Below, piece by piece: positions 1,457 to 16,456 of a stretch of 32,000 nucleotides of DNA. The notes below the pieces were generated by a model. It did no database searches and was not told the DNA's origin. It saw only the letters and a list, made by a program, of their open reading frames with translations. Origin of the DNA: Neiella litorisoli (GTDB lineage: Bacteria > Pseudomonadota > Gammaproteobacteria > Enterobacterales > Neiellaceae); NCBI RefSeq assembly GCF_014773395.1, contig NZ_JACXAF010000009.1, positions 145,247 to 177,246 on the forward strand. The letters run 5' to 3'. The translations under genes were made by a program, and so were the position numbers. Each line of letters starts with the position of its first letter. Within the stretch, counting starts at the first letter, position 1.

Positions 1457-3421
1457 CTAAAGCAGGGGAATGATCGGTGCTGTCACGACTTTTTCGCAGT
1501 GATCATCGGCTAGGACATATTGATATTCATCATTGGTGCAGGTTCGCAAGGCTGGCTCTGTCACTGTCGTAACGCAACTATCGCCAGATTCCACCATTCC
1601 TGCTGGGCAGCCATTGTCCGATGGCGGTTGCCGGTCAATTTGTAAGCATGAATAACCGCTCAGCGTACCGCCATCAGGACAGACCCACGTCGGCGGTTCC
1701 TCCAGCCAGAATTCACATAGGTTGGTCGAACTATTGAATTCCCATGGCGTCGTATGACATTGCTCGTGAGGCATGGTTCCACCGGTCGTCTTTACGCATT
1801 TTTCGGCGGTAAATCCTCCATATCGAGTCTCAAGTTCCCATCCGGAGGGGCATGTTCCGGATTTATCTATCGGACTGCCAACAAAGCAATAATTGCGCCC
1901 TCCATCGTGGGGGTGGCTTTCAGGGCAGCTACCGTCTAGATTTTTCGGCGTGGCCCCTGCCCGACAACCACCTTCTGGTTGCCGGCCATATCCCTCTGGG
2001 CAATCGATTTGCCGGATCTCAAAACATAGCTCACCATTATAATCATCGGTATTCAACGAATTATGGCCGGATGGAAACGCTCCAGACGCACAGCGGTACT
2101 TATCATAATTGTGATTGCCAAAAATATACTGGCGCCAGCCTTCACATTGGCCGGAACGTGAATTGTAATCAACTCGCCCGCAATCTGGTGATGCACTATA
2201 TGATGTATCCGAAACGCATTCGTTGGCTTGTTCATCAAGCGTATAACCTTCAAGACAGCTCGATGGAACCGCATCATATCGAGTGACATCTTCGCATAGT
2301 GCTGCGTTTCCTTGGACGCTGGTGCCGCCATCATCACAGTAGTGATCTTTGCTCGCGGTGAGTGTTTTCTCACACCGTCCCGTGGCGTCGTTGTACGTGT
2401 AATCGTTCACTGAACAACCGTACGCAATGGGTCTAGTGTTAGCCTCTTTTAAGCAGTTCTCGTGATAGGCATCGAGAAACCAGCCAGTATCACATGAACC
2501 TGGTGTGTTATTCGTGGGACCGTTTTTGCACCAGTGTGTCGTAAGTCCGGTGTTGGCTTGGTACCAACCTTCTGGGCAAGGTTCATCTAAGTCAAGTTGA
2601 ATGCGGTCGACATCGCAATCGCCGACATAGCCGGGATGGTATCCTTCAGGGCAGTTTACTGTGCCAATCAGGTGGCATTGCTCACGAGGAGGATTTGCAT
2701 AGGAGTCGCGTGAGTAACCAGGCGGACAGTTTGTAGTCACATAGGACGTCGTCGACGTCTTCTTTTCGCAGCTGTTACCATCGGTGTTTGAGTATCCGGC
2801 GGGACAGCGATAGGCGGCAGCAACCACAGTGCGCTTCTCGCACTCATCGCTTTGTTCGAGATAGGTGTCGTTACCTTCGCAGTTACTGGTTTTACTAATA
2901 GCCATCTCGCGTGAACACTTGTCACCATTCAGGAAATAGCCGACGAATAGTTCGCAACTCCAGATCGCAGGCTGAATATCGATGCTTTTGCAAATGGATT
3001 CATCGCTCAACTCGTAACCTGATGGACACCAAGTTGCTTGTACTGTGTCAATACCCACCTTCCATGACGCAATGCCTTCGACATGATCGCTGTTTGGATA
3101 GATCGGGATCTTGAAGTACCCCGGCGTCAGGATTTCAATATCGACCAGCTGGGTGATTCCGGGGGGGATCGAGCGGCCATTTACCACAATGCCAAATGGA
3201 CTGTCTTCGGCGACTCTTACTCGCAGTGTGTTGATGCCTCTGGCGAGTAACCCTTTGCTATCTTTGATGTCATTAACCTCAATAAAAGCCATTGGCGAGC
3301 CATCTTGGTAGACAAATGATTGCGCGAAACCGAAGGTATCTTGTATTCCCATGTCGATATCGGATGCCCACGTTGTTCCTATCATCAATGCAGTAAGAAC
3401 TGCGACTATTTGGCGAAACAT
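1457..3421 (-). CDS. Secreted cysteine-rich repeat protein (654 aa), paralogue of the upstream 1122-aa protein
   Basis: Signal peptide MFRQIVAVLTALMIGTTWA. An AAGGAG SD lies 9 nt upstream of the ATG at 3419-3421, and the gap to the upstream stop is 15 nt. The Cys-free N-terminal domain (SDIDMGIQDTFGFAQSFVYQDGSPMAFIE...GIVVNGRSIPPG...FKIPIYPNSDHVEG...W) aligns with the N-terminus of the 3437..6805 product. The rest consists of degenerate two-Cys modules such as CPSGYELSDESIC, CPAGYSNTDGNSC, CPEGYHPGYVGDC and CPSGWELETRYGGFTAEKC. Confidence 0.85.
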   Translation of the reverse strand: MFRQIVAVLTALMIGTTWASDIDMGIQDTFGFAQSFVYQDGSPMAFIEVNDIKDSKGLLARGINTLRVRVAEDSPFGIVVNGRSIPPGITQLVDIEILTPGYFKIPIYPNSDHVEGIASWKVGIDTVQATWCPSGYELSDESICKSIDIQPAIWSCELFVGYFLNGDKCSREMAISKTSNCEGNDTYLEQSDECEKRTVVAAAYRCPAGYSNTDGNSCEKKTSTTSYVTTNCPPGYSRDSYANPPREQCHLIGTVNCPEGYHPGYVGDCDVDRIQLDLDEPCPEGWYQANTGLTTHWCKNGPTNNTPGSCDTGWFLDAYHENCLKEANTRPIAYGCSVNDYTYNDATGRCEKTLTASKDHYCDDGGTSVQGNAALCEDVTRYDAVPSSCLEGYTLDEQANECVSDTSYSASPDCGRVDYNSRSGQCEGWRQYIFGNHNYDKYRCASGAFPSGHNSLNTDDYNGELCFEIRQIDCPEGYGRQPEGGCRAGATPKNLDGSCPESHPHDGGRNYCFVGSPIDKSGTCPSGWELETRYGGFTAEKCVKTTGGTMPHEQCHTTPWEFNSSTNLCEFWLEEPPTWVCPDGGTLSGYSCLQIDRQPPSDNGCPAGMVESGDSCVTTVTEPALRTCTNDEYQYVLADDHCEKVVTAPIIPLL

Positions 3422-3436
3422 ACTGACTTCTCCTTG

Positions 3437-6400
3437 TTAGATCGCGACAAATGGCTCAGTGACCAGCATCTCGCACTGACCCTCAACGCGGTTGTAGATG
3501 AGCCCTTCGTTGCCGCAATCGGCACGTGCACTAACTGTCACCGTTTTGCGACAATAACCGTTATGCTGGTCAGCATAATCAGTCGGACAACCATCTTCTT
3601 GTTTCTGAACATATACATAGCGCCAGCAATTTTGCTTATCCAAGGTATAGTTTTCGGGGCACACGTAGCCGTGTGGCTCGGTGCTGATCAGTTCACAGTG
3701 CCCGTCGACTTCAGATTTACCGTCGTAACAATGTTTGGTGGCTGCTACGGTATTGGTTTGTTGGCAGTAGCTTCCAACAAGGGCCCACCCGTGATCACAA
3801 GTTAGCGAGTAAGGCGTCGTAACAAGCTGGCTACATCGTTCGCCATCAAGAGAGTAAGCACTTGGACATGTTTTATAGGCGGGTTTACTGAGTATTTGCT
3901 CACAACTTGTGCCCACCAGCGACCAGCCTGTATCACAGCTGTATGAAATTGCGCTGCTAGCGGTATGAGTACATCCAGATTCGGTTGTCGCCCAGCCACT
4001 AGCGCAAGATGGAGTCGCTGCGACAGTATCGAGCTTTCTGCATTGCTCTCCGGATAGAGACCACCCGCTGTCGCAACTGACCGAGTACGCCATGGTTCTG
4101 AGCTTTGAGCAGCTAGTCCCATTAAGTGTCCACCCAGTTGGACATGTTTTGGTGGCAGTAGTGGTTAACGTTCTCAGACAGTTAGTACCACTCAGGGTCC
4201 AGCCACTAGAGCAACTGTACGTATAAGAATCGTTGTTGATGATCGTTTTTTGGCACTGCGTACCGTTGAGGGTGTAGCCCGATGAGCAGGTTTTCGTTGC
4301 TGCGATCGTATTAGTTCTTGAGCAGCTGGTGCCATTGAGGCTCCAACCACTGCCGCACGCATAGTCATAACCATCGGTCACTGTTTTTGTGCAGGTGGAG
4401 CCGGACAGGCTATAGCCGCTTGGGCAGACTTTACTTGCAGTCGCAGTGTAGGTTCGTGAACAAGACGTACCAGACAATGACCAACCAGAAGCACACGAAT
4501 GGTCATAACCATCGGTCACTGTTTTTGTGCAGGTGGAGCCGGACAGGCTATAGCCGCTTGGGCAGACTTTACTTGCAGTCGCAGTGTAGGTTCGCGAACA
4601 AGACGTACCAGACAATGACCAACCAGAAGCGCACGAATAGTCATAACCATCGGTTACTGTTTTTGTGCAGGTGGAACCGGACAGGCTATAGCCGCTTGGG
4701 CAAACTTTATTTGCAGTCGCAGTGTAGGTTCGCGAACAAGACGTGCCAGACAATGACCAACCAGAAGCACATGAGTAAGAGATACTTCTCAAGGTGAAAC
4801 GTTCACACTCTCCGCCATTGAGTGCGTAGCCGTTCGAGCAAGTAGCTGTCGCGGCTGAGCTGATAATCTCTTGGCAATAAGTTCCATTTACTAGAGTGCC
4901 GGATGGGCAAGATAGCCCTTCGGCTGGGTATAGTTGGACCAAGTCGCACATGGTTCCATTGAGAACCATTCTGACGTTTGGGCAGCTATATGTCGGTGTC
5001 TGAGTGGTTCTTTTTGCACAGAAGTCCCATGCGAGGCTGTAACCACTAGGACAGCTTTTGGTCGCTGCTTCTGTGCTTGTTTTGGAGCAGGTGGTGCCTG
5101 ATAGGGTGTAGCCGCTATTACAGCTCAGGCTATAGGCCGTCGAGACTAATTTTTGACAAGTCGAGCCGGAGTCCGAGTAGCCACTAGGACAGCTTTTGGT
5201 CGCTGCTGCTGTGCTGGTTTTGGAGCAGGTGGTGCCTGATAGGGTATAGCCACTATTACAGCTCAGGCTATAATCCGTCGAGACTAATTTTTGACAAGTC
5301 GAGCCGGAATCAGAGTAGCCACTAGGGCAGCTTTTGGTCGCTGCTGCTGTGCTGGTTTTGGAGCAGGTGGTGCCTGATAGGGTATAGCCGCTATTACAGC
5401 TCAGGCTATAGGCCGTCGAGACTAATTTTTGACAAGTCGAGCCGGAGTCAGAGTAGCCACTAGGACAGCTTTTGGTCGCTGCTGTCGTCGTTGTCTTAGA
5501 GCATGTGGTACCTGATCGCGTGTAACCACTACTACAGCTATAAGTGATCGATGTAGTCACGACCTCTGATTTGGTACAGTTTGTCCCGGTATCTGCGTAG
5601 CCATTTGGACAGCTTGCCGCGGCAGTGGTTACCGAGCCTTTGGTGCAAGTTGTTCCGCTAAGTGTCCACCCCGATTCGCACTGATATGCGACGGTTTGAG
5701 TGTCAGTCCTTTCGCAGCGATTACCATTGAGCGAATATGATGCGTCGTCACAACTCCGGTCTGCTGCTACCGTATAGTTCATTTCACATGAGGTGCCACT
5801 GAGTGTCCAGCCGCTAGCGCATTTGTACTCATATGGCTGCGTCGTGATCTTTTGGCAAACGGAACCGGTGTTGGTCATGCCAGTCGGACAGCTTTCATCG
5901 GCCGCTACGGTATTTGACTGGGTGCAATTCGTTCCGCTGAGAGTCCAACCTGTGTCACACGTATAGCTATAGGCGACCGTGAGGGTGTCCTCACACCGCT
6001 CACCGCTCAGACTTCCGCTTGAACACACTTTGTCTGCAGCAACGGTGTCCGTTTTCGAGCACTGCGTGCCATCGAGCGACCAACCAGTCTGACACTGGTA
6101 ATCAAGCGGTGCGGTATCAATACGCTGACAATCCGAGCCGGCATCGATGAAGCCTTCAGGGCAAGTGGCTGTCGCGGCTTGAACATCTTGTTGACGGCAA
6201 TCGCCCCCACCATAATCGATCCAACCAACAGGACAGGATGTGGGCATCGGCAACTCATGGATCTGAATGCATTCATCGCCTTCTGCGAGGACAAAGCCCG
6301 CTTCGCATTGCCATGTAACAGCTTCTACCAACAGTTTTTCGCAGTGATCACTCTGCTCGTTGTACCCTGTCGCAGTGAAACCATCACGGCACCAGTCGGC

Positions 6401-6784
6401 AATAATGTCATCAATGGTTGCTTCCCATTGGAGCCGGCCGGTGACATTATCGCTAGCAGGATAAATCGGCAGCTTGACTCTGCCGGGGGTGGTGACATTG
6501 ATGGTTACAGGCACTTCATGCCCTGGCCAAATCGTGGCGCCATTAACGACAATGCCGTATGGCGCATCAGCGCCTAGGCTAACGCGCATAATGCTTTCGC
6601 CACGCGCAGGGGCTCCGCTATCATCCGACAAACCCGTACCCTCGATATACGCCATCGGTTCGCCATTGGCATAACTAAATGAGCGCGGTTTGCCGAAGGT
6701 CTCTTGCGTACCCATGTCGATTTCATTGGCTGCTACGACGCTGTGCAGGCACAGGAGCAACAGAGCTGTCAGACGATAGAGCAT
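3437..6784 (-). CDS. Very large secreted cysteine-rich tandem-module protein (1115 aa from ATG 6784; 1122 aa if the GTG at 6805 is used)
   Basis: One uninterrupted minus-strand ORF. The ATG at 6782-6784 has an AAGGA SD 8 nt upstream and gives the signal peptide MLYRLTALLLLCLHSVVAA. The N-terminal domain is homologous to that of the 654-aa neighbour (NEIDMGTQETFGKPRSFSYANGEPMAYIE...GIVVNGATIWPG...VKLPIYPASDNVTG). It is followed by dozens of roughly 23-aa modules of the form C-x2-G-[WY]-[TS]-L-[SN]-G-[TS]-x-C with Ser/Thr-rich linkers. Confidence 0.9.
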   Translation of the reverse strand: MLYRLTALLLLCLHSVVAANEIDMGTQETFGKPRSFSYANGEPMAYIEGTGLSDDSGAPARGESIMRVSLGADAPYGIVVNGATIWPGHEVPVTINVTTPGRVKLPIYPASDNVTGRLQWEATIDDIIADWCRDGFTATGYNEQSDHCEKLLVEAVTWQCEAGFVLAEGDECIQIHELPMPTSCPVGWIDYGGGDCRQQDVQAATATCPEGFIDAGSDCQRIDTAPLDYQCQTGWSLDGTQCSKTDTVAADKVCSSGSLSGERCEDTLTVAYSYTCDTGWTLSGTNCTQSNTVAADESCPTGMTNTGSVCQKITTQPYEYKCASGWTLSGTSCEMNYTVAADRSCDDASYSLNGNRCERTDTQTVAYQCESGWTLSGTTCTKGSVTTAAASCPNGYADTGTNCTKSEVVTTSITYSCSSGYTRSGTTCSKTTTTAATKSCPSGYSDSGSTCQKLVSTAYSLSCNSGYTLSGTTCSKTSTAAATKSCPSGYSDSGSTCQKLVSTDYSLSCNSGYTLSGTTCSKTSTAAATKSCPSGYSDSGSTCQKLVSTAYSLSCNSGYTLSGTTCSKTSTEAATKSCPSGYSLAWDFCAKRTTQTPTYSCPNVRMVLNGTMCDLVQLYPAEGLSCPSGTLVNGTYCQEIISSAATATCSNGYALNGGECERFTLRSISYSCASGWSLSGTSCSRTYTATANKVCPSGYSLSGSTCTKTVTDGYDYSCASGWSLSGTSCSRTYTATASKVCPSGYSLSGSTCTKTVTDGYDHSCASGWSLSGTSCSRTYTATASKVCPSGYSLSGSTCTKTVTDGYDYACGSGWSLNGTSCSRTNTIAATKTCSSGYTLNGTQCQKTIINNDSYTYSCSSGWTLSGTNCLRTLTTTATKTCPTGWTLNGTSCSKLRTMAYSVSCDSGWSLSGEQCRKLDTVAATPSCASGWATTESGCTHTASSAISYSCDTGWSLVGTSCEQILSKPAYKTCPSAYSLDGERCSQLVTTPYSLTCDHGWALVGSYCQQTNTVAATKHCYDGKSEVDGHCELISTEPHGYVCPENYTLDKQNCWRYVYVQKQEDGCPTDYADQHNGYCRKTVTVSARADCGNEGLIYNRVEGQCEMLVTEPFVAI
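4371..4784. repeat. Three tandem copies of a 138-bp (46-aa) in-frame coding repeat inside the 1122-aa gene
   Basis: Copies start at 4371, 4509 and 4647 (ccatcggtcactgtttttgtgcaggtgg...). Copies 1 and 2 differ at 3 of 138 nt by my count, and copy 3 diverges towards its end. The encoded unit is VCPSGYSLSGSTCTKTVTDGYD[YH]SCASGWSLSGTSCSRTYTATA[SN]K. More degenerate copies flank the array. Confidence 0.9.
5043..5456. repeat. A second array of three tandem 138-bp (46-aa) in-frame coding repeats in the same gene, with a different unit sequence
   Basis: Copies start at 5043, 5181 and 5319, and a degenerate fourth copy starts at 5457 (ccactaggacagcttttggtcgctgc...). Neighbouring copies differ at about 5-8 of 138 nt by my count. 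The encoded unit is SCPSGYSDSGSTCQKLVST[AD]YSLSCNSGYTLSGTTCSKTSTAAATK. Confidence 0.9.
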
Positions 6785-7072
6785 TGCTTTATCCTTAAAG
6801 TCCACTTGTCATTGCAACAGACCCTACGCCAATTCGAATGCAATTAACGGTCATCTATCGAGCCAATTTTTCCGATAATTGATGCATTGAGGTATTTCGT
6901 AAGGCTCTGCTCCGTAGGCAGGTCAGATTTGTCCGTATTTGACGCTTGCCGAGTGCAGCAATGTCGGATCGCGACACCCGTCAACTAATTGGTCGTACCG
7001 AGACAAAAAGCATTGCTGTCTGCCACAGACGCACGTTAAGTTTCTTAACAGCGACAGTCTTGGAGGATTCGC

Positions 7073-7438
7073 ATGTACTTGAATTTAACCCCGTTGAATG
7101 CAGACGAGCTGCCCATTCGTCAGTGCTTTGATGTCGACCAACCAATGCGTCCGGTATTGCATGACATTCTTCGTCGTGCGGCACGCCCGAACCCGGATGT
7201 CTACGAAGTCGTCCAAGACCTGTTGGCCTTGGCCCTTTGGGTGCCAATTCACAATGGCAAGAATTTATTGGCATGGCCTGTAAGCCATCTGATTGTGGAA
7301 GAAGGGTTCGCCTTGTTACCTGAACTTGTCTCTGCGTGCTCTGAGCACTCCATCAAAGTCCAGCTATATGATGGTCAAACGGTTAATCCGCTTGTTGATG
7401 GTCACAACGGAGCGACGGTCGTTCGGCTGGCCGGTTAG
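7073..7438 (+). CDS. Hypothetical protein (121 aa)
   Basis: A GGAGGA SD lies 6 nt upstream of the ATG at 7073. No family motif recognised. The gene is divergent from the Cys-rich operon and on the same strand as tus. The overlapping ORFs 6981..7274(-), 7098..7283(+) and 7293..7577(+) lack comparable start signals. Confidence 0.55.
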   Translation: MYLNLTPLNADELPIRQCFDVDQPMRPVLHDILRRAARPNPDVYEVVQDLLALALWVPIHNGKNLLAWPVSHLIVEEGFALLPELVSACSEHSIKVQLYDGQTVNPLVDGHNGATVVRLAG

Positions 7439-7569
7439 GCCATCAACTCAGTTGTCTTGGCACTCCAGCAAGTTCTTGCTTGAAGCGTTACAGTCGAATA
7501 TTCCGTTCACTGATTTAACCCCAAGCAATATCCGGAAAGCATGCCCATTCCGGTCCTTACCGCCAGATA

Positions 7570-7749
7570 TATACTAAGGTTCCATGTTGCTCCCAAGTGT
7601 AAACCCCACTCCGATCTAAAACCGGAGACACCTGCGAAGCCGCCTTTTCTATTTATTTTTATTTTTTATTATTTTTTGGTTTTGTTTCGGGGCGGAATGG
7701 TGTGAGCCAGGGAGAGTAGTGGTTGTTTCCTACTTGGAACCTTAGTATA
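7570..7749. repeat. Perfect 15-bp inverted repeat pair (TATACTAAGGTTCCA at 7570-7584, TGGAACCTTAGTATA at 7735-7749) bracketing a 150-bp T-rich spacer; a candidate Tus-binding/Ter-like pair or the ends of a MITE
   Basis: Read directly from the sequence; the arms are exact reverse complements. The right arm ends 15 nt upstream of the tus ORF. If the arms are read as 13-bp TIRs (TACTAAGGTTCCA), both are flanked by TA. Confidence 0.6.
7641..7690 (+). other. Extreme T-rich (plus strand) tract
   Basis: The tract cgccttttctatttatttttattttttattattttttggttttgtttcgg has GC-rich sequence on both sides and lies in the middle of the inverted-repeat pair. It is likely to be easily melted or intrinsically curved DNA. 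Confidence 0.7.
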
Positions 7750-7753
7750 CAAT
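7723..7753 (+). promoter_or_regulatory. Candidate tus promoter overlapped by the right inverted-repeat arm
   Basis: A -35-like TTGTTT sits at 7723-7728 and a -10-like TATACAAT at 7746-7753, giving a 17-19 bp spacer depending on the hexamer chosen. The 15-mer at 7735-7749 lies between and over these elements. Assigned by eye only. Confidence 0.3.
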
Positions 7754-7763
7754 TATGGTGTAG

Positions 7764-8687
7764 ATGGCCAGTGAGGCGAACCTGATGGATACAGTACAGG
7801 CGATTAAATTAGCGTTTTACGAAGTGAACGAGGCGGTTAAGGCTCTGCGTGAGTACGTACTTGAGCAGCCTGTTGTGGCCAGTCACTTTTTTGAAATTCC
7901 GCCAGTGGCTCGCGAAGGTATTCGCAATGTCACCACCGCGATTAACGTGACACCGGTTGCCATGCCCATTGCGGTGAGCGCTTGTACCCGCGCTTATGGT
8001 CGTTTCTTTATGGCCAACGATCTGTCGACAAGCTATTCCGGTTTGTATCCAGGTGTCGTGCAGTTGCCTGCTGCTTGCCGTGACGACTTGGCTGCATTGC
8101 TCTTGCAAGTTGAGCACAAAAAGCATCAGTTCAAAGCACTGATCACCGGCGCTCGCAAACAAGGTCAAGCGCGCTGGGAGTTAGTGCATGAACAAGCCTT
8201 TGCCGGCGAGCTGCTCATGACCTTGCATGTCTATCGCCAGATACCTGCCCTACTCAATGACAGCATCATTCAGTCTGTTGGCTGGACCTGGAAGCGCCAA
8301 CCGGTCAGGGAAAAAATGCCGCGAGGTGAAATGACCACACGGATCGCCATCCAGAAAGAGACTACCGATGATCCGCTGTTAGAGCAGGTGTTTGCCGACG
8401 CGATCACGGTGCTCAACAGGTTTGCCGAAGACCGAATGGTCTACAAGTTTTACCCTGATGTATTGGTGCCCATGGTTAATGTGAAACGCCAAGCCCCAGT
8501 ACCGGCCAATGTGCCCGCCAAACAGATGAAAGCAGGTCACTTGCCGTTGTTGATTTGTTCGGACGCTCCGATCCGCTATAACCTCATGCGCAGCTACGTG
8601 CCCAACGGTGGACGTGTCAGGAACGATGGTCGAGCTGCTAAATGGCGGTCTGTGTATTCGCCATTGTCACTCTACGTGGCGGATTAA
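7764..8687 (+). CDS. tus: DNA replication terminus site-binding protein Tus homologue
   Basis: The ORF is 307 aa; E. coli Tus is 309 aa. Blocks that align by eye: the C-terminus SPLSLYVAD vs PRLHLYVAD, ARWELVHEQ vs ARFEWVHRH, VGWTWKRQ vs FGWANKH, LYPGVV vs RLPGVL, and HLPLLI vs PTPLIA. An alternative start at ATG 7785 has a GAGG 8 nt upstream. Confidence 0.85.
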   Translation: MASEANLMDTVQAIKLAFYEVNEAVKALREYVLEQPVVASHFFEIPPVAREGIRNVTTAINVTPVAMPIAVSACTRAYGRFFMANDLSTSYSGLYPGVVQLPAACRDDLAALLLQVEHKKHQFKALITGARKQGQARWELVHEQAFAGELLMTLHVYRQIPALLNDSIIQSVGWTWKRQPVREKMPRGEMTTRIAIQKETTDDPLLEQVFADAITVLNRFAEDRMVYKFYPDVLVPMVNVKRQAPVPANVPAKQMKAGHLPLLICSDAPIRYNLMRSYVPNGGRVRNDGRAAKWRSVYSPLSLYVAD

Positions 8688-8975
8688 GCATTTCTTACCA
8701 CCGAGTATGATCGACTTCAGGTGCGGTTGTAGCTTGAGCGGCTGATATTGGCGAAGTTACACGCCTTGAGCACACTCAAACCAAAGCCAACCAAGGATTG
8801 GGCACAGTCTTTTTTTGCTGCTGTCATCATTGCCGAAAACTCCAATCAAATCTGCCTCAGCTTAGGGGAAGTGGACAGATCGTGATAGTTAAGGAACGGC
8901 ACTTATCCTATGTTGTTAAATGCTTTTCTGATAAGTTCAGGAGCGAAGGAATCCACTCAGAATAAGGAATTGTTT

Positions 8976-9339
8976 ATGTTCAAAAAACTCTTAACCGGAC
9001 TCGCCATGATGTCGCTAGCGACACAAGTGTTTTCCGCTGGTCGCGCAGAGAATGTTACGATTAGTGCCATTAAAGTCGTCGATAACGCTGTTTTCATTAA
9101 ACTCGACGGGAAAGTAAGCGACCAACCAAAATGTGCAACCAACGTTGCCTACCCGTTTGCACTCTATACCGCAGGCGATATTTCGGCCAAGGTGATAGTG
9201 CTCAGAAGCAATGAACAACGAAAGCAAAGTAACCATTACCGGCTTAGGAAAATGTGTATCCACTAAAAGTGACGCGTTTCTCGATTATTACGACACTGGA
9301 AGTGAAGCGATTTGGGCGGTAATTGCTAGCGCACCATAA
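8976..9339 (+). pseudogene. Small secreted protein gene apparently disrupted by a frameshift (frame A 8976-9266, frame B 9211-9339)
   Basis: An AAGGA SD precedes the ATG at 8976, and the signal peptide is MFKKLLTGLAMMSLATQVFSA. After ...YTAGDISAKV, frame A runs into a basic low-complexity tail (RSNEQRKQSNHYRLRKMCIH*). The +1 frame continues with a native-looking end (AMNNESKVTITGLGKCVSTKSDAFLDYYDTGSEAIWAVIASAP*) that stops just before the terminator hairpin. Confidence 0.45.
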
Positions 9340-9350
9340 TAATAATCGAC

Positions 9351-9376
9351 AAGCCGCTGCCCTTCAGCGGCTTTTT
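9351..9376 (+). terminator. Rho-independent terminator
   Basis: The stem pairs AAGCCGCTG (9351-9359) with CAGCGGCTT (9365-9373) around a 5-nt loop, and runs into a T-tract (9372-9376). It sits between convergent genes. Confidence 0.7.
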
Positions 9377-9391
9377 ACCCCTCTTTTTTTG

Positions 9392-10030
9392 CTAGCGGCC
9401 GATGAACGGGCTGACATCGACGATGTCCACCTCGTCTTTTTTTAGCAAATAGTAGTCACTAACCTTTTTCACTTCCGCGCCATACTTGTCCTTGATGCTG
9501 GCATGAATCTTAGTATGACGGCTGAGTACACTCGTTAGAGACCTTCCGCCATTGAAAAACTTCAATGGATATTTCGTTCCAACCACATAGAGATACTTTC
9601 GCTTTGACGTTTCATATTCAGCAAGCTCAAAGAAGTCTTTGAAAATGCCGTTTTGCCTGATGGATTCAGAGCCACCTTGCCAGTCAATGAACTTGTACTC
9701 AGCAATTCGTAAATTGGTTTCCAGATCGAATCTTCGCCCTGTGTTTCCCGCCCCAAGCGAGACACTTTCAACCAGCTCCCCCTCATCAAGTATTCCGTCC
9801 AGAGATTTGAGTATGCCTGCTGCGTGAATAATGACGTTGATCTGTCCGGCCAATCGTTTCACGCTCAAGGCAGAATCCATAAAACGGTCGTTAATCTGAT
9901 TGGTAGCACAAAAGTCCGCAATGTTGTCCTGAGATGCACCGATGACGTCACTTTCAATCTTGGCTAGGCTTTCCGTCAGTGAGTCGCCTTGAAACCGCTC
10001 TAAGGCACGCAATGCCTCTTCAATTGTCAT
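9392..10030 (-). CDS. PD-(D/E)xK-type nuclease-like protein (restriction-endonuclease-like), with no methyltransferase partner in the window
   Basis: In this 212-aa ORF, the segment GRRFDLETNLRIAEYKFIDW fits the D...E-x-K core (the D of FDLE, then E-Y-K 9 residues later). No neighbouring methyltransferase or specificity gene is present. AT-rich ORF-free DNA lies upstream. Confidence 0.55.
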   Translation of the reverse strand: MTIEEALRALERFQGDSLTESLAKIESDVIGASQDNIADFCATNQINDRFMDSALSVKRLAGQINVIIHAAGILKSLDGILDEGELVESVSLGAGNTGRRFDLETNLRIAEYKFIDWQGGSESIRQNGIFKDFFELAEYETSKRKYLYVVGTKYPLKFFNGGRSLTSVLSRHTKIHASIKDKYGAEVKKVSDYYLLKKDEVDIVDVSPFIGR

Positions 10031-10658
10031 GATCTATTCCGTTGATTGGTAAGTCACTGTAGAGGGCGGCAGGCATTCTGGAAAAATCCGCCAAAATTTA
10101 TATAACTTCATGATTATAGGGGTTTCGTACTCACTCAAAGTCGAATTTATACGGAGAAGCACCATAACATTCAATAACTCATATTTATCAACTGTGAGCT
10201 TTTGCAAGAGAACAGGTGCTCCCAACATCTCGAATGGTATGTATATACATAGTATGTACTACAGTACGAAATCATAATGTGATGATCGATTCCGTTGAAT
10301 AGCAGTGAAGGCCTGCAACTCGACAGACAGGCCTCCGTTTCCAGCGACAACTCAGTCAAAGCAGCGCAATAGGGAAGCTTCGCTACTTAACAGCTCCATG
10401 GTGACCAAAACCCACGTAACCGACAAACGGCCACAAATCTGCCCCAAACTGCACACTTCGGAGCATTTCAGCGTTTAAGGCCCAAACGGCACATCAACAC
10501 CTATTTCAGCACCGTTGAGCAGAGTTCGACATCGTTCAGCATGAGCCACAGCACAACCCGGCATAAAAAAGACACGTAACAGCATGAAATAACGTGAAAT
10601 TACCTAAATATGACGTAGTAAAAAGCCGCCCTTTTCAGCTAAATTACTAAGCATCGAA

Positions 10659-10865
10659 ATGAATCGAAGCAATGAAATTGAGAGCGCACCAATGAGCAGA
10701 ACCAAAGACCAATTTATCCAAGAGTTTGGCGGATTCGATGTTAGGGAAAATACAGTTATTACCCACGAAAGACTAAAAAAAGCAGCTGAACTGCAACGCG
10801 AGCCCTTAACGGCGGAGTCGTACAGACAAAATAGTGATCCAAAGAAATGGGGGATCGGCATGTAA
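10659..10865 (+). CDS. Possible small hydrophilic protein (68 aa, or 57 aa from the internal ATG)
   Basis: The ORF has a plausible hydrophilic composition (MSRTKDQFIQEFGGFDVRENTVITHERLKKAAELQREPL...), but the SD is weak. The antisense ORF 10604..10861 looks less protein-like. Confidence 0.3.
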   Translation: MNRSNEIESAPMSRTKDQFIQEFGGFDVRENTVITHERLKKAAELQREPLTAESYRQNSDPKKWGIGM

Positions 10866-11015
10866 GGTGTGTGGGTTTCACATTATCGACGAGTGTATTT
10901 GCCCATCATGAATCATATCTCTGCCTACTTAACTCAGAGCAGGCGGCAGCGAAGGCAAATGGCCCGCAAATGCGGGCGAGTGGATTGACTACCTTGGTCT
11001 AGAACCATGACGCTG

Positions 11016-11399
11016 TTAGCTATCCGCCACCCCAAGCTTTTGAAGGAACTCAGGGCCATATTTATATTGGCTGTTAATGCTGCTTAGTGAACCTGGGGCG
11101 TAAGGCTTAAATGGCTCGGTATAACTGCGGCGAATAAATGCGGTTGAACCGTTACGAAACTCAACATACAAACGGTCATCAGACATTACCGATAAAACCA
11201 GCGCGACCGTATCTACATGTAACTGGATATTGTACCCATGCCGGCGATGTGTTCTTGCAATCACAACATATTCGGGCTCTTTGGCGACACCGAGTGCATC
11301 GCAGAGCGCATCTTGCATCGTTTTTCTGTCACTCTTTCGGCGCAGATCAAGAGATTGATTGACAGCTAAAATCGTTTGGATGGTTTGCCATTCTGCCAA
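11016..11399 (-). CDS. Hypothetical protein (127 aa, TTG start)
   Basis: An AAGGAAA SD lies 8 nt upstream of the TTG at 11397-11399, and the gap to the upstream stop is 20 nt. No motif recognised. Confidence 0.6.
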   Translation of the reverse strand: MAEWQTIQTILAVNQSLDLRRKSDRKTMQDALCDALGVAKEPEYVVIARTHRRHGYNIQLHVDTVALVLSVMSDDRLYVEFRNGSTAFIRRSYTEPFKPYAPGSLSSINSQYKYGPEFLQKLGVADS

Positions 11400-11419
11400 G
11401 AGATCGTTTCCTTATTGCC

Positions 11420-12121
11420 CTAAGAGTGGGTATCGAGTTGTTGCTCCCAACGCATAGCTATGGTGGCGTTTTGCAGATCAGACACTGAATCTAGTGTGTT
11501 TGAAATTAGCGCCTTCTTTCCCTTGGCCGAACGGACCAACAACTCGCAGTATGGACGCATTGCTTGACTCTCTAATCTGTCATGAATCGCTTTGGATACA
11601 GCATTCATCTGCTCGGACGTCAGTGTGCAGCACTTGCTATCAACATCAAGCTGCTCAGGCGTAATGCGTGTTTTGTAAAGATTACGAACGACAGGTTTCC
11701 AGTCATACGAGACGGTTCGTGCTTGCACAGTAACAGCAAGCTCTTGATTATCTTGAGCCTGCATCAACAGGAAATGGATATCCGGGACAGTTTCCTCGTC
11801 TAATGCCAATCGTTTGGCTCTGAGTTTAGTTTTATGGTTGAGCCCTTCTCCCCAAGAGGAGTTCAACGCCATCTTTTCAGTCAGCACAGTAATGGCAAGT
11901 CGTTTGCGATCATCCATCACCGCAACGCAATATTCGTGCTTCTCAGGAATGAAAATGAGATGGCCAGAGCGAACACTCTTTGCATCGAAACTATGACCAG
12001 TACCTTTTAGCCAAACAAATCGGCCTTGCTCCAACATTCCCGTAAGCCAATCGGTGTCGACGCCAAACCTTGTTTCTAAGCGCTCGCTGGCATGGTTGTG
12101 TACTGATACATCATTTGCCAT
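11420..12121 (-). CDS. Hypothetical protein (233 aa)
   Basis: The internal ATG at 12119-12121 (MANDVSVHN...) has a strong AAGGAGGAG SD, which I prefer over the upstream start at 12151. No motif recognised. Confidence 0.7.
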   Translation of the reverse strand: MANDVSVHNHASERLETRFGVDTDWLTGMLEQGRFVWLKGTGHSFDAKSVRSGHLIFIPEKHEYCVAVMDDRKRLAITVLTEKMALNSSWGEGLNHKTKLRAKRLALDEETVPDIHFLLMQAQDNQELAVTVQARTVSYDWKPVVRNLYKTRITPEQLDVDSKCCTLTSEQMNAVSKAIHDRLESQAMRPYCELLVRSAKGKKALISNTLDSVSDLQNATIAMRWEQQLDTHS

Positions 12122-12498
12122 AACTCCTCCTTGAATGGCAACTCTTAGCAACTAGTGGGGGCGGGAACCATTAGTGTATTTGTCATATTCAAGGCGCCCT
12201 GTGCAATTGGAGAACTGTCGTCCTAACAATGCTTTTCAAATTCTTTGCGGTGTATGTAGTGGTTACTAAATCGATTATTTGCCTCTACTGCTTGCAGCTG
12301 CGCATTGCTTACGAAACCTTCAGCTCCAACCATTCATGGGATTGTTCACCGCATTTGCCATACACATACTGCATCACCAAACGCGCGGCAGGTTACGACT
12401 GAATTCCTGCCTCCACTGATAGAAAAGGTTTGTCATTAAGAGGAATATGCCTCGCACACCAACTGACTTGGGCCATAGTATGCAAGATTCCGACTTGT

Positions 12499-13083
12499 CT
12501 AATCGGTCTTGATCCAAAGAGGATTGTAGGTATCTGAATCTTCGTGTTGCTTGGTCAACCTTTGATCCTTTCCAACCTGTTCTTTACAGAGTGAATCCAT
12601 TTTACTTACTGCTTCAGAATAACCCTTAAGTTCAAAACTAATCGGCTGTTGATTTCCGATTTTTACAAGAACATTTTTTCCGCTGGATAACTGCTGAGCG
12701 AGCTTCTCAATATCGCCTTGCTTGTTGCTGTTAGTAGAACCTTCTTGCATGACTAAACGCAAATGCTCAACCTCTTTGTTAACTTCTCCGAGCTGATAGA
12801 AACTGAGCGTTTGATTAGAATCAACCCTGAATTTCAGGTTTCTAAGAAGATTACGGCTCCAGCCCTCTTTGGTGTCATGTATTACGACTCTGGGAGCGAG
12901 GTATTTTGCATATTTTTTGAAACCACAGGTCAAAGAAAGATATTTCCCATCAACTTGTTCGGACTTAAACGACGTGTATTTCTGGTCTGTGAATGGATCA
13001 GTTTTTAAGTTTTGCTGCCACTGAGCAACGGCAGAGTTGCTAACGAATACGAATATTGCAGGAACGATTAAACGTTTAAGCAT
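12499..13083 (-). CDS. Secreted hypothetical protein (194 aa)
   Basis: Signal peptide MLKRLIVPAIFVFVSNSAVAQ with an AGAGG SD. Confidence 0.7.
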   Translation of the reverse strand: MLKRLIVPAIFVFVSNSAVAQWQQNLKTDPFTDQKYTSFKSEQVDGKYLSLTCGFKKYAKYLAPRVVIHDTKEGWSRNLLRNLKFRVDSNQTLSFYQLGEVNKEVEHLRLVMQEGSTNSNKQGDIEKLAQQLSSGKNVLVKIGNQQPISFELKGYSEAVSKMDSLCKEQVGKDQRLTKQHEDSDTYNPLWIKTD

Positions 13084-13098
13084 GGTTACCTCTAAATG

Positions 13099-13350
13099 TT
13101 AAGCAGACGTTTTTGCTACTGCACTGAACCAAACATCTTCAGACCATTTTGCTGTGTTTTGACTTGTTCTGGCTTCTATTGAGCTTCCGATTAGTCCGTA
13201 TGCTTGTTGAAGCACTTGATCGGCGCTTTCCCTATATGAACTCCTACTCATTTTAAGAGATTTGCCTTCAAGGTTTTTGATATAGATGTATTTTTCATCC
13301 TCTGAAACTTGGGACAGGATGCCAAAGTGATTCCATTTATAACCGCTCAT
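13099..13350 (-). CDS. Hypothetical small protein (83 aa)
   Basis: An AAGG SD is present, with a 15-nt gap to the next gene and 9 nt from the upstream stop. Confidence 0.6.
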   Translation of the reverse strand: MSGYKWNHFGILSQVSEDEKYIYIKNLEGKSLKMSRSSYRESADQVLQQAYGLIGSSIEARTSQNTAKWSEDVWFSAVAKTSA

Positions 13351-13359
13351 ATGGTTGCC

Positions 13360-13569
13360 TTAGTCCTGTTCGGACAGTTTTTCAACGCTAAATGTTGATT
13401 TGTAATCATCAAACACCATGCCGCATTCGTCATTTTCAGTAGCCATCAGTGCGCCAGTGGTAGCCAACATTAAAGATTTTAGGACTAGCTCTTTCTGGTC
13501 TTCAGAAGACGAAAATCGTGCCTCTAAAACATTAATGACTTCATCAACTGCATCGCTTACATCTGCCAT
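13360..13569 (-). CDS. Strongly acidic small protein (69 aa)
   Basis: An AGAAAGGG SD is present. My hand count gives 16 D/E against 5 K/R (net about -11). Confidence 0.6.
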   Translation of the reverse strand: MADVSDAVDEVINVLEARFSSSEDQKELVLKSLMLATTGALMATENDECGMVFDDYKSTFSVEKLSEQD

Positions 13570-13584
13570 TTGAAACCCTTTCTC

Positions 13585-13764
13585 TTAAAAATCCAAAATT
13601 CCGGCGATTCTGGCTTCGCTAACCAGAGCTTCAACATCAAAAACAGGGGTTGGGTCTAAGTCGCCTGAATCATCTTCTTTCAGCAAAATTTCGAATTGCC
13701 CACCTTCCAGACCTTCTAAAATCCAGTTGATTAGCTGCAACTTCTTTTTCTGGTTGAGGCGCAT
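13585..13764 (-). CDS. Acidic small protein (59 aa), below the ORF-track cutoff
   Basis: Hand translation: MRLNQKKKLQLINWILEGLEGGQFEILLKEDDSGDLDPTPVFDVEALVSEARIAGILDF*. An AAGGA SD lies 7 nt upstream of the ATG at 13762-13764. The ORF exactly fills the gap between neighbouring genes. Confidence 0.55.
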   Translation of the reverse strand: MRLNQKKKLQLINWILEGLEGGQFEILLKEDDSGDLDPTPVFDVEALVSEARIAGILDF

Positions 13765-13778
13765 CGGTATTCCTTAGT

Positions 13779-14018
13779 CTATCGTTCGCTGATTTTTAGC
13801 TGCGGATTGTCATCTAGGAACTGCAAGCTCTTGTTGAGCTGATCTGCTAGTTCGCGTGCCGCCTCAATGCTGATTTCTTTCCGCAGTGTTGGTTCTGAAC
13901 CGATGTAATCACCTCCCCGACCAAACTCAAGCAATACGCTTTTGACGACTCGCTTGCCGTTCTGGTTATCTTCAAGTAAAGACGCTTCTACGACCTTAAC
14001 TGGTAAGCCTTGCCCCAT
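13779..14018 (-). CDS. Hypothetical small protein (79 aa)
   Basis: The internal ATG at 14016-14018 (MGQGLPVKVVEAS...) has an AAAGGAAAA SD and lies 10 nt after the upstream stop. The longer 13779..14084 version would overlap the upstream gene. Confidence 0.6.
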   Translation of the reverse strand: MGQGLPVKVVEASLLEDNQNGKRVVKSVLLEFGRGGDYIGSEPTLRKEISIEAARELADQLNKSLQFLDDNPQLKISER

Positions 14019-14028
14019 TAGTTTTCCT

Positions 14029-14391: not shown

Positions 14392-14404
14392 ATCGGGGGA
14401 GTCC

Positions 14405-14560: not shown

Positions 14561-14578
14561 AAATACCCGATTCCCTTG

Positions 14579-15244: not shown

Positions 15245-15276
15245 TGGGGGTTCCTTGTTAATTATTAGGCTGATAG

Positions 15277-15684: not shown

Positions 15685-15702
15685 TGCCGGTTTCCTTGTT
15701 CG

Positions 15703-16310: not shown

Positions 16311-16325
16311 TGAAGCACCTGTATG

Positions 16326-16386: not shown

Positions 16387-16456
16387 CTTGATTCCCTATT
16401 CAAAATTGTGGGCTACTACAATTAACCACAAACAACTAAATTGGCTTGGTGTGTTA

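What the first reader, a model, noticed from the sequence alone, without database searches (positions are those of the whole stretch)
7570..7749. Perfect 15-bp inverted repeats flanking a 150-bp T-rich spacer immediately upstream of tus: a mini fork trap and autoregulatory operator, or a MITE
TATACTAAGGTTCCA (7570-7584) and its exact reverse complement (7735-7749) bracket a 150-bp spacer. The right arm lies between and over the best -35/-10 candidates for tus.

Hypothesis 1 is that these are Tus-binding sites.
- In E. coli, TerB overlaps the tus promoter and Tus represses its own transcription. The geometry here is the same.
- Read on the plus strand, ACTTGGAACCTTAGT matches 9 of 15 positions of E. 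coli TerB TGTTGTAACTAAAGT, including the TTG and AAC core segments and the 3' AGT. This is a weak resemblance.
- If that alignment gives the polarity, the two sites face each other so that forks can enter the 150-bp interval but not leave it. That is the arrangement of the paired ter sites of plasmid R6K.

Hypothesis 2 is a 176-180-bp MITE. Read as 13-bp TIRs (TACTAAGGTTCCA), both ends are flanked by TA, as expected for a TA target-site duplication of IS630/Tc1-like elements, and the interior is AT-rich and non-coding.

I cannot decide between these from one window.
Basis: partly seen in the sequence, partly recalled or inferred. Interest (0 to 1): 0.7.

Follow-up and report, generated by a model that had tools for sequence, protein, structure and literature searches.

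The report
Paired terminator sites upstream of tus
The perfect 15-bp inverted repeat in front of the Neiella tus gene is most likely a pair of oppositely facing binding sites for the replication-terminator protein Tus, a 150-bp replication fork trap that travels with its own tus gene; the same three-part layout occurs on many plasmids and seems not to have been described, and it is not a transposon relic.

Summary
**Observation.** Confirmed. TATACTAAGGTTCCA (7570-7584) and its exact reverse complement (7735-7749) flank a 150-nt spacer that ends 35 nt before the annotated start of a divergent tus gene.

**Main evidence.** The same layout recurs in 13 of 24 other tus loci I fetched:
- a perfect 13-20-nt inverted repeat with a 95-268-nt spacer;
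- the proximal arm 2-57 nt from the tus start in 11 of the 13;
- usually a central homopurine or homopyrimidine tract.

These loci include IncA/IncC plasmids, plasmids of Aeromonas, Vibrio, Psychrobium and Proteus, and Pseudoalteromonas chromids. In 11 of the 13 the arms are clearly Ter-like, and all 13 are oriented like E. coli TerB, with the blocking faces pointing into the spacer. Neiella's T-rich spacer is its copy of the central tract. GC skew at third codon positions switches sign in a zone that includes the dyad, in the direction expected where forks converge.

**Weak points.**
- The Neiella arms score poorly against a Ter weight matrix, so their polarity rests on analogy.
- The source genome could not be searched for further copies.

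**Verdict.** The MITE reading is rejected. No other copy was found, and a transposon would not explain the repeated association with tus or arms that change with the Tus lineage. This is a new, sequence-divergent variant of a known kind (R6K/R1-type paired Ter sites). The cassette appears undescribed in the literature I could search.

The parts
7570..7589 (-). Distal arm (candidate Ter site). The perfect core is 7570-7584 (TATACTAAGGTTCCA); the block shared with the other arm at 18 of 20 positions runs to 7589. Read on the - strand it is GAGCAACATGGAACCTTAGTATA. In the favoured register it has A5-G6, as in canonical Ter.
7585..7734 (.). 150-nt spacer between the perfect arms. This would be the trapped interval if the blocking faces point inward.
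7643..7682 (+). Central homopyrimidine (T-rich) tract, 33 of 40 pyrimidines on the tus coding strand, centred at 0.52 of the spacer. None of the other 31,742 40-nt windows in the window reaches this value. Matching tracts (32-38 of 40 purine or pyrimidine) lie centrally in 6 of 7 other dyads examined.
7730..7749 (+). Proximal arm (candidate Ter site). The perfect core is 7735-7749 (TGGAACCTTAGTATA); the 18/20 block starts at 7730. It lies 35 nt upstream of the tus ATG at 7785, the position TerB holds in E. coli.
7748..7753 (+). -10-like hexamer TACAAT (5/6) overlapping the outer end of the proximal arm. This is a candidate tus promoter element read by eye; it is not supported by the consensus scan.
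7785..8687 (+). tus, a divergent DNA replication terminus site-binding protein of 300 aa. The ORF could also start at 7764. A Shine-Dalgarno-like GAGG lies at 7773-7776.
6800..14000 (.). Zone in which GC skew on the + strand changes from positive to negative, the sign change expected where forks converge. GC3 skew is +0.26 and +0.30 for the genes at 1457-3421 and 3437-6805. Genes from about 14 kb on are mostly negative, many between -0.1 and -0.3. The best single changepoint is 9330, but the likelihood is flat from about 6 to 13.5 kb.

Best explanation
The two arms are a dyad of oppositely oriented binding (Ter) sites for the Tus protein encoded immediately downstream. Together with the central pyrimidine tract and tus they form a self-contained 'Ter - tract - Ter - tus' cassette.

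Inferred mechanism, not shown:
1. One Tus monomer binds each arm.
2. By analogy with homologous cassettes whose arms align to E. coli Ter, the fork-blocking (non-permissive) faces point into the spacer.
3. A fork from the left passes the distal arm and stops at the proximal one. A fork from the right crosses tus and the proximal arm and stops at the distal one.
4. Replication therefore ends within a 150-bp interval, as at the paired ter sites of plasmids R6K and R1.
5. Tus on the proximal arm, next to or over the tus promoter, probably also represses tus, as TerB does in E. coli.

Shown here: the repeat, the Tus identity and fold, the recurrence of the architecture, the conservation of arms versus spacer, and the skew switch. 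Inferred: binding, polarity, fork arrest and autoregulation in Neiella.
For: 1. The gene is a real Tus. Pfam gives 77.8 bits. The family profile hits E. coli Tus at 2.9e-60. The predicted fold superposes on Tus-Ter structures at TM 0.77-0.79. In a MAFFT alignment the cytosine-lock pocket is kept conservatively: I79M, F140W, H144, G149.

2. The architecture recurs. Thirteen of 24 other tus loci have a perfect 13-20-nt inverted repeat with a 95-268-nt spacer. In 11 of the 13 the proximal arm ends 2-57 nt before tus; in pS121 it overlaps the annotated start, and in the Proteus plasmid it lies 1.1 kb upstream. In the seven of these loci that were shuffle-tested, 0 of 100 shuffles reached the observed arm length. 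The closest parallel is the Psychrobium plasmid, with 16-nt arms and a 149-nt spacer, against 15 nt and 150 nt in Neiella.

3. Those arms look like Ter sites. In 11 of the 13 the proximal arm reads GYATGWTGG... on the tus coding strand, where E. coli TerB has GTATGTTGT.... The two Pseudoalteromonas chromid arms resemble Ter less clearly. All 13 are oriented like TerB relative to tus.

4. Arms track the Tus lineage, and arms plus the tract are the constrained parts. In five IncA/IncC-type dyads both 15-nt arms are invariant and the CT tract is conserved, while the rest of the spacer carries indels of 10 to about 70 nt.

5. Neiella's T-rich tract is the counterpart of the central purine or pyrimidine tract seen in 6 of 7 other dyads.

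6. The GC3 skew changes sign in the converging-fork direction in a zone that contains the dyad. There are no iterons and no excess of DnaA boxes.

7. Resident chromosomal Aeromonadales tus genes (Dongshaea, Oceanimonas) keep a single Ter-like site directly before the ATG. This supports equating the proximal arm with TerB.

8. Autoregulation through a ter site in the tus promoter is established for E. coli (review PMC10331603).
Against: - The Neiella arms are not recognisably Ter-like. Against a weight matrix from nine non-Neiella Ter-like sites, the proximal arm scores -3.8 bits and the distal arm +2.5 bits (ranks 3,742 and 363 of 63,968).
- An alternative register in the opposite orientation (CCATGTTGC, 6.25 bits) scores slightly better. 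Polarity therefore cannot be read from the sequence.
- In the favoured register the proximal arm lacks the G-C(6) pair.
- Neiella Tus has lost two residues that are nearly invariant in its relatives (K89S, R232Y). Its closest relative among 1.8 billion representatives is only 28% identical, so no close orthologous locus exists to test conservation.
- The source genome was not retrievable. Copy number elsewhere in the genome, the replicon type of the 184-kb contig and the true position of the terminus are all unknown.
- Only three genes lie left of the dyad, and one is a repetitive gene, so the skew switch is suggestive only.
- Eleven of the 24 tus loci lack a dyad.
Confidence: 0.72

Rival explanations
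1. Operator pair only. The arms bind Tus, or another regulator, to control tus transcription and perhaps a divergent promoter, but do not arrest forks in Neiella. The cassette would be a regulatory relic of a plasmid system.
For: The proximal arm abuts a -10-like element. Neiella Tus has lost K89 and R232 and is an orphan lineage. The proximal arm lacks G-C(6) in the favoured register, and the arms score poorly on the Ter matrix. Toft et al. note that some Tus-Ter arrangements may not serve fork arrest at all, citing Cedecea (PMC8707476).
Against: To my knowledge Tus is a monomeric polar barrier in every characterised case, and simple autoregulation needs only one site. The distal arm, 165 nt away, is kept perfectly identical. 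The lock-pocket residues are retained. The skew switch coincides with the locus. The same dyad sits beside repA in a Pseudoalteromonas chromid, and these chromids are reported to replicate unidirectionally (PMC7858055).
Confidence: 0.13
2. The dyad has outward-facing polarity. The arms are Ter sites whose blocking faces point away from the spacer, so forks are stopped before they enter. This would make an insulator or anti-trap, or a one-sided barrier if the sites differ in strength.
For: The alternative register (ATGTTG at 7584-7589 on the + strand; 6.25 bits) scores better than the favoured one.
Against: In that register most of the block shared by the two arms would fall outside the canonical Tus footprint. 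All 13 homologous dyads have the TerB-like orientation with position 6 inward. Two outward-facing barriers would leave the spacer unreplicable unless they leak.
Confidence: 0.08
3. A MITE or solo transposon remnant of 176-180 bp with 13-15-bp terminal inverted repeats and a TA duplication, inserted by chance into the tus promoter region.
For: The element has perfect terminal inverted repeats, an AT-rich non-coding interior and TA at both ends. The whole unit folds as a long hairpin with z = -4.8. The source genome could not be searched, so copy number is unknown.
Against: The window holds no second copy of the interior or of paired arms. The 18-mer gives only 8 isolated hits, none paired and none near tus, in one genome per 185,579 species, and the 15-mer gives 43 single hits in viral contigs. 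There is no plasmid match and no transposase among about 40 ORFs scanned, though more than 30 of those matched no family. A MITE cannot explain why the same geometry, with lineage-specific Ter-like arms and a central tract, sits upstream of tus in 13 unrelated replicons. The TA is palindromic, so it is not evidence of a duplication.
Confidence: 0.03
4. A chance or decaying repeat with no current function.
For: The lineage is an orphan and the arms are not Ter-like.
Against: No shuffle in 100 reaches 15 nt. Two arms that were drifting independently would not stay identical over 15 nt and 18 of 20. The tus ORF is intact and its predicted fold is confident.
Confidence: 0.04

Closest known systems
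Paired ter sites of plasmids R6K and R1 (terRL/terRR)
   Same: Both have two short Ter sites in inverted orientation a short distance apart, forming a site-specific terminus that stops forks from both directions (R6K) or enforces unidirectional replication (R1) (review PMC10331603). From memory, Horiuchi & Hidaka 1988 described the R6K core as a 20-bp inverted repeat.
   Different: To my knowledge R6K and R1 carry no tus and rely on the host Tus, and their sites match the E. coli Ter consensus. Here the dyad is physically coupled to its own divergent tus, carries a central pyrimidine tract, and has arms that do not match the consensus.
E. coli TerB-tus, and the type I 'ancestral' fork trap (Toft et al. 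2021, PMC8707476)
   Same: A Ter site lies immediately upstream of tus, oriented to block forks moving towards tus, and probably autoregulates it. In type I traps the site next to tus is an innermost site.
   Different: The narrowest reported chromosomal traps are 18 kb (Dickeya paradisiaca) and 56 kb (Edwardsiella tarda). Here the opposing site is 150 bp away on the same side of tus, and the Ter sequence is unrecognisable.
Mobile or plasmid-borne tus genes (Galli et al. 2019, PMC6549158) and the tus next to ori2 on Pseudoalteromonas chromids (Xie et al. 2021, PMC7858055)
   Same: Neiella Tus has no close relatives, and its nearest neighbours include plasmid Tus proteins. The dyad layout is shared with IncA/IncC, Aeromonas, Vibrio, Psychrobium and Proteus plasmids and with Pseudoalteromonas chromids.
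   Different: Those papers did not identify the cognate ter sites. Xie et al. report that a search with the E. coli consensus failed. The 2023 review calls a ter site there 'only implicated'. The Neiella locus shows a terminus-type skew switch and no nearby rep gene or iterons.
IS630/Tc1-type MITEs
   Same: Short perfect terminal inverted repeats, TA at both ends, and an AT-rich interior of about 150 bp.
   Different: No other copy was found wherever a search was possible, and no partner transposase was seen. Homologous structures occur at tus loci with unrelated arm sequences.

Membership tests
Tus protein family (PF05472) | Sequence match above the curated threshold | tested here: met
   77.8 bits against a cut-off of 22, covering profile positions 2-259 of 296. 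The profile of Neiella Tus with 11 relatives hits E. coli Tus at 2.9e-60. A single-sequence search does not reach PDB Tus.
Tus protein family (PF05472) | Tus fold | tested here: met
   The AlphaFold2 model has pLDDT 86.6 and pTM 0.76. Foldseek matches 4xr2, 1ecr, 4xr0 and 4xr1 at E about 1e-20 and TM 0.74-0.79, with nothing else below E 0.3.
Tus protein family (PF05472) | Cytosine-lock pocket (E. coli I79, F140, H144, G149; residue list recalled from Mulcair et al. 2006) | tested here: inconclusive
   A MAFFT alignment gives M, W, H, G, a conservative retention. Alignment at about 19% identity is uncertain. The near-invariant K89 and R232 are S and Y.
Ter site (polar Tus-binding site) | Match to the Ter core consensus (E. 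coli AGNATGTTGTAACTAA, or the wider family GYATGWTGK) | tested here: not met
   Matrix scores are -3.8 bits (proximal) and +2.5 bits (distal). No window site comes within 2 mismatches of the E. coli consensus. The match to TerB is 9 of 15.
Ter site (polar Tus-binding site) | Position immediately upstream of tus, in the TerB orientation | tested here: inconclusive
   The position is met, 35 nt before the ATG. The orientation cannot be fixed from the sequence because two registers of opposite polarity score similarly.
Ter site (polar Tus-binding site) | Specific binding by the cognate Tus and orientation-dependent fork or helicase arrest | not testable with these tools
   This needs EMSA or SPR, 2D gels or helicase assays.
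Ter-dyad/tus cassette (defined here from 13 loci; R6K-like inverted pair coupled to tus) | Perfect inverted repeat of 13-20 nt with a 95-268-nt spacer | tested here: met
   15 nt and 150 nt. The nearest parallel is Psychrobium at 16 nt and 149 nt.
Ter-dyad/tus cassette (defined here from 13 loci; R6K-like inverted pair coupled to tus) | Proximal arm within about 60 nt upstream of the tus start, on the same side as the distal arm | tested here: met
   35 nt here. Eleven of the 13 other dyads lie 2-57 nt from the start; pS121 overlaps the annotated start and Proteus lies 1.1 kb upstream.
Ter-dyad/tus cassette (defined here from 13 loci; R6K-like inverted pair coupled to tus) | Central strand-asymmetric homopurine or homopyrimidine tract in the spacer | tested here: met
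   33 of 40 pyrimidines at relative position 0.52, unmatched by any other 40-nt window in the 32 kb. Six of 7 other dyads have 32-38 of 40.
Ter-dyad/tus cassette (defined here from 13 loci; R6K-like inverted pair coupled to tus) | Arms recognisably Ter-like with position 6 facing inward | tested here: inconclusive
   This holds clearly for 11 of the 13 other dyads and less clearly for the two Pseudoalteromonas chromids. In Neiella only the distal arm has A5-G6 in the favoured register.
MITE (IS630/Tc1-like) | Multiple dispersed copies in the genome | tested here: inconclusive
   The 32-kb window has no second copy. There is no paired copy in the genome, viral or plasmid collections. The source genome itself was not in the searchable collection, since its own locus was not returned.
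MITE (IS630/Tc1-like) | Terminal inverted repeats plus a target-site duplication | tested here: inconclusive
   The inverted repeats are present. The 'TA' flanks are palindromic, so they cannot be told apart from the outer two bases of the repeat.
MITE (IS630/Tc1-like) | A cognate transposase somewhere nearby or in the genome | tested here: not met
   No transposase domain appears in about 40 window ORFs scanned, though more than 30 of them matched no family. The rest of the genome is untested.

The most novel reading that the evidence does not exclude
Mobile tus genes generally travel as a self-contained fork-trap cassette: two inward-facing Ter sites 95-270 bp apart, a central homopurine or homopyrimidine tract, and tus itself. 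This module would supply the so far unidentified ter sites of IncA/IncC plasmids and Pseudoalteromonas chromids. The Neiella locus would be a copy of it installed at a converging-fork skew switch. That would make it a 150-bp terminus, about 100 times narrower than any reported chromosomal trap, and the predicted intermediate between plasmid traps and chromosomal type I traps. Its Tus/Ter pair would have co-diverged beyond recognition.
Probability: 0.35. Interest if true: 0.8.

Novelty: new variant of a known kind. Interest (0 to 1): 0.66.

Why it matters
**An open question becomes testable.** Reviews of replication termination propose that chromosomal Tus-Ter traps were domesticated from plasmid systems (PMC6549158, PMC10331603). 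The ter sites that accompany plasmid and chromid tus genes have not been mapped: a consensus search failed on Pseudoalteromonas chromids (PMC7858055), and the 2023 review marks that site with a question mark. The dyad found here gives concrete candidate sites for many replicons, including the clinically important IncA/IncC plasmids.

**Neiella offers an extreme case.** It has a Tus with a retained lock pocket and a binding site that no longer resembles Ter. This is useful for asking which features of the Tus-Ter lock are essential.

**A possible minimal trap.** If the contig is chromosomal, this would be the smallest fork trap known on a chromosome.

**An unexplained conserved element.** The central purine or pyrimidine tract has no explanation in current models of fork fusion.

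Tried and rejected
- **Whole-genome copy count.** It returned 8 unrelated single hits and not the window's own locus.
- **Extending the window.** Exact-protein look-ups of Tus and of the leftmost ORF found nothing on record.
- **Close orthologues.** None exist. The word-index search found only the protein itself, and the exhaustive search found at most 28% identity.
- **E. coli-type Ter and dif.** No Ter consensus site within 2 mismatches, no dif and too few KOPS sites to use. A dif-like half-site upstream of Oceanimonas tus did not hold up.
- **Other RNA or origin features.** No Rfam family, tRNA or tmRNA. No iterons and no excess of DnaA boxes.
- **Extra arm-core copies at 919-933 and 25441-25455.** Both lie inside ORFs and both are in the + orientation. 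Whichever polarity is assumed, one of them faces the wrong way to act as a back-up site. I treat them as probable chance matches.
- **Apparent 14/17 match to the Psychrobium site.** The Neiella proximal arm read in reverse matched the Psychrobium site at 14 of 17 positions. I discounted it because much of the match falls outside both inverted repeats.
- **Spacer ORF 7541-7705 (54 aa).** It has no family match, its hydrophobic stretch is a by-product of the T-run, and the tract has the opposite strand sense in other dyads.
- **Sequence-based polarity assignment.** Inconclusive.
Full report
**1.

The + strand reads TATACTAAGGTTCCA at 7570-7584 and TGGAACCTTAGTATA at 7735-7749. The repeat finder extends the arms to 18 nt at 94% complementarity. 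By eye they agree at 18 of 20 positions (TATACTAAGGTTCCAWGTWG). The perfect cores are 150 nt apart. No dinucleotide shuffle out of 100 of the 400 nt upstream of tus produced a perfect inverted repeat this long with a 60-300-nt spacer.

The ORF that follows is Tus:
- Pfam PF05472 scores 77.8 bits.
- The profile built from it and its relatives hits E. coli Tus at 2.9e-60.
- An AlphaFold2 model (pLDDT 86.6) superposes on E. coli Tus-Ter crystal structures at TM 0.77-0.79.

The database copy of the protein comes from Neiella sp. HB171785, is 300 aa long and starts at ATG 7785. The proximal arm therefore ends 35 nt before the start codon.

**2. An orphan Tus, so no orthologous locus to align**

The exhaustive search of 1.8 billion cluster representatives found nothing above 28% identity. 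The nearest relatives are Aeromonadales chromosomal Tus proteins (Dongshaea marina, Oceanimonas) and a plasmid Tus from Psychrobium.

The source genome could not be reached:
- My single genome-collection scan, with an 18-mer that fits both arms, returned eight isolated chance hits and not the window itself.
- Exact-protein look-ups for two window proteins found nothing on record.

**3. Comparative architecture decides the question**

I fetched tus loci of distant relatives through exact-protein look-ups and through a tblastn search of 72,556 plasmids. That search showed Tus homologues on 1,257 plasmid records (loci).

Thirteen of the 24 non-Neiella loci carry a perfect inverted repeat of 13-20 nt with a 95-268-nt spacer:

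| Locus | Arm (nt) | Spacer (nt) | Gap to ATG (nt) |
|---|---|---|---|
| Psychrobium plasmid | 16 | 149 | 10 |
| Pseudoalteromonas spongiae plasmid | 14 | 157 | 2 |
| Pseudoalteromonas Bsw20308 chromid | 13 | 95 | 9 |
| Pseudoalteromonas THAF3 chromid (tus abuts repA) | 14 | 97 | 16 |
| Aeromonas ASNIH4 plasmid | 19 | 244 | 56 |
| Aeromonas FDAARGOS 1402 plasmid | 18 | 246 | 56 |
| A. salmonicida pS121 | 17 | 247 | overlaps the annotated start |
| Vibrio YMD68 plasmid | 17 | 195 | 48 |
| IncC pVCR94 | 16 | 182 | 57 |
| IncC Providencia plasmid | 16 | 192 | 57 |
| IncA pGA_VIM | 15 | 253 | 57 |
| A. caviae KAM339 plasmid | 18 | 253 | 53 |
| Proteus plasmid | 20 | 268 | 1,141 |

Neiella, at 15 / 150 / 35, falls inside this range.

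In 11 of the 13, the proximal arm read on the tus coding strand is plainly related to E. coli Ter. Examples are TTGCATGATGGTCTAA, GCATGATGGTATACTT, GTATGATGGTATAG, ATAGGAATGTTGGTTGAGA and TATTGTATGTTGGTCTAGAT, against E. coli AAGTATGTTGTAACTAA. The two Pseudoalteromonas chromid arms (for example AGTATGATGTGTTC) match less closely. All 13 have the orientation TerB has relative to tus.

By the E. coli rule, the non-permissive face lies at the position-6 end. I take this from memory of Mulcair et al. 2006; it agrees with Toft et al., PMC8707476. On that rule both blocking faces point into the spacer, so forks can enter but not leave.

Resident chromosomal Aeromonadales tus genes show no dyad within 2 kb either side. 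Dongshaea and Oceanimonas each keep one Ter-like site (GTATGWTGGCATAATA) directly before the ATG. I did not check the third resident locus (L180) for a single site.

**4. Arms and a central tract are the constrained parts**

In an alignment of five IncA/IncC-type dyads, both 15-nt arms are invariant. The remaining spacer differs by indels of 10 to about 70 nt.

Six of seven other dyads examined, and Neiella, carry a central homopurine or homopyrimidine tract of 32-38 of 40 nt. At most 0.2% of the other 40-nt windows in each locus reach that value. In Neiella the tract is 7643-7682, with 33 of 40 pyrimidines, centred at 0.52 of the spacer. None of the other 31,742 windows in the 32 kb matches it.

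The tract is pyrimidine-rich on the coding strand in some lineages and purine-rich in others. That points to a property of the duplex and not to an RNA signal. Its role is unexplained.

**5. Local replication context**

GC skew at third codon positions, expressed on the + strand, is +0.26 and +0.30 for the two large genes left of tus. It is mostly negative from about 14 kb rightwards, with many genes between -0.1 and -0.3 (coarse profile). A switch from positive to negative marks converging forks, meaning a terminus and not an origin.

The switch lies somewhere between about 6.8 and 14 kb, which includes the dyad. The estimate is broad. It rests on only three genes to the left, and a low-GC island at about 9-17.6 kb blurs it. 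There are no iterons and fewer DnaA boxes than expected by chance.

**6. What does not fit**

- Against a weight matrix from nine non-Neiella Ter-like sites, the Neiella arms score -3.8 and +2.5 bits.
- A register of opposite polarity (CCATGTTGC at the inner edge of the distal arm) reaches 6.25 bits.
- I favour the inward-facing register for two reasons. The block shared by the two arms then overlaps the canonical footprint (positions 7-26), and all 13 homologous dyads face inward. This is still inference.
- In that register the distal arm has A5-G6, but the proximal arm has C at position 6.
- Neiella Tus keeps the lock pocket conservatively (I79M, F140W, H144, G149). It has S and Y where relatives have the near-invariant K89 and R232. 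This fits altered DNA specificity but does not prove function.
- The promoter scan finds no consensus promoter. By eye, a 5/6 -10-like TACAAT at 7748-7753 overlaps the arm, so autoregulation is plausible but unshown.

**7. The MITE hypothesis**

- The window has no second copy of the interior or of a paired arm.
- The element has no plasmid match, and only single chance hits appear in the viral and genome collections.
- No transposase was found among about 40 ORFs scanned, though more than 30 of them matched no family.
- The TA 'duplication' is the palindromic end of the repeat.
- A MITE also cannot explain the recurrence of the same geometry, with lineage-specific Ter-like arms and a central tract, upstream of tus in unrelated replicons.

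I put this reading at about 3%. The only reason it is not lower is that the source genome was unavailable.

**8. Comparison with what is known**

- *Function.* The closest precedents are the paired inverted ter sites of R6K and R1 (PMC10331603). To my knowledge those plasmids use the host Tus and consensus Ter sites.
- *Position.* The proximal arm corresponds to TerB, or to Ter1 of type I traps, but the narrowest reported chromosomal traps are 18 and 56 kb (PMC8707476).
- *Mobile tus genes.* These are known (PMC6549158), but their ter sites are not. Xie et al. failed to find them on Pseudoalteromonas chromids (PMC7858055), and the 2023 review calls them 'only implicated'.
- *Literature search.* No paper in the searchable library contains the IncC arm sequence. 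The search covers open-access papers only, so an older description cannot be excluded.

**9. Verdict**

The feature is real. It is very probably a Ter dyad that forms a 150-bp fork trap coupled to its own tus (confidence about 0.72). It is a sequence-divergent member of a cassette that is widespread on plasmids and chromids and appears undescribed. I classify it as a new variant of a known kind, with interest 0.66. Binding, polarity and arrest in Neiella remain to be shown.

Noticed in passing
window 919-933 and 25441-25455: Two further copies of the arm core ACTAAGGTTC (12 and 11 contiguous matching bases). Both are in the + orientation and both lie inside ORFs on the - strand (342-1379 and 25389-26108). 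Whichever polarity is assumed, one of them faces the wrong way to be a back-up Ter site, so they are probably chance matches.
   Followed up: partly
window 906-917 and 926-937: A direct repeat AGGTTCGCGTGG occurs twice, 20 nt apart, overlapping the 919-933 arm-like site inside the ORF at 342-1379.
   Followed up: no
window 3437-6805 (- strand): A 1122-aa Cys/Ser/Thr-rich protein built from tandem repeats of about 46 aa (138-bp DNA repeats at 4356-4771 and 5039-5539). It has no Pfam match.
   Followed up: no
window about 8800-17600: A low-GC stretch (0.43-0.47, against about 0.50 on either side) made of ORFs with no family match, plus a MazF/PemK-like toxin (15703-16056) and a tyrosine recombinase (16786-17580). 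It looks like a genomic island inserted just downstream of tus, and it blurs the GC-skew turning point.
   Followed up: partly
window 8818-8878: A 60-nt non-coding stretch downstream of tus is 87-90% identical to unannotated stretches on two Alteromonas macleodii plasmids (NZ_CP147981.1, NZ_OX359238.1). It could be an island boundary or a small conserved element.
   Followed up: no
window 9392-10030 (- strand): This 212-aa ORF has no family match, but its DNA is 67-68% identical to hypothetical genes on Agrobacterium and Sinorhizobium plasmids, which suggests a horizontally spread gene.
   Followed up: no
window 22233 (-), 15749 (-), 9511 (+): These are the best window matches to the canonical Ter-family weight matrix (14.8, 14.3 and 12.1 bits; for example AGGTATGTTGAAATAGA). 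They score far above the dyad arms, but about this many hits are expected by chance in 64 kb.
   Followed up: no
L178 (Psychrobium plasmid CP179211) about 11002-11195: A second, unrelated perfect 21-nt inverted repeat (TATTAAAAGTTAAGTTAACTT) with a 152-nt spacer lies about 100 nt downstream of tus, ahead of a gene pair that includes a DnaB-like helicase. It may be part of the plasmid's replication region.
   Followed up: no
L191, L190, L197, L201 (IncC/IncA-type dyads), inner flanks of both arms: A second inverted motif (GTGGGGTATA / TATACCCCAC) sits directly inside each Ter-like arm. A short GC hairpin (for example CCCGCGAGCGCGGG) follows the CT tract in several spacers. Their function is unknown.
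   Followed up: no
L195 (Proteus mirabilis plasmid NZ_CP137230) 55-362: The 20-nt Ter-like dyad lies 1.1 kb upstream of tus and overlaps an annotated 'hypothetical protein' CDS (154-360), which is probably a mis-call over the spacer.
   Followed up: no
L172-L175 (metagenomic tus loci), about 40-60 nt upstream of tus: A conserved palindrome GTGTATATTTATACAC occurs upstream of two tus genes that lack a long-range dyad. It may be a different kind of operator.
   Followed up: no
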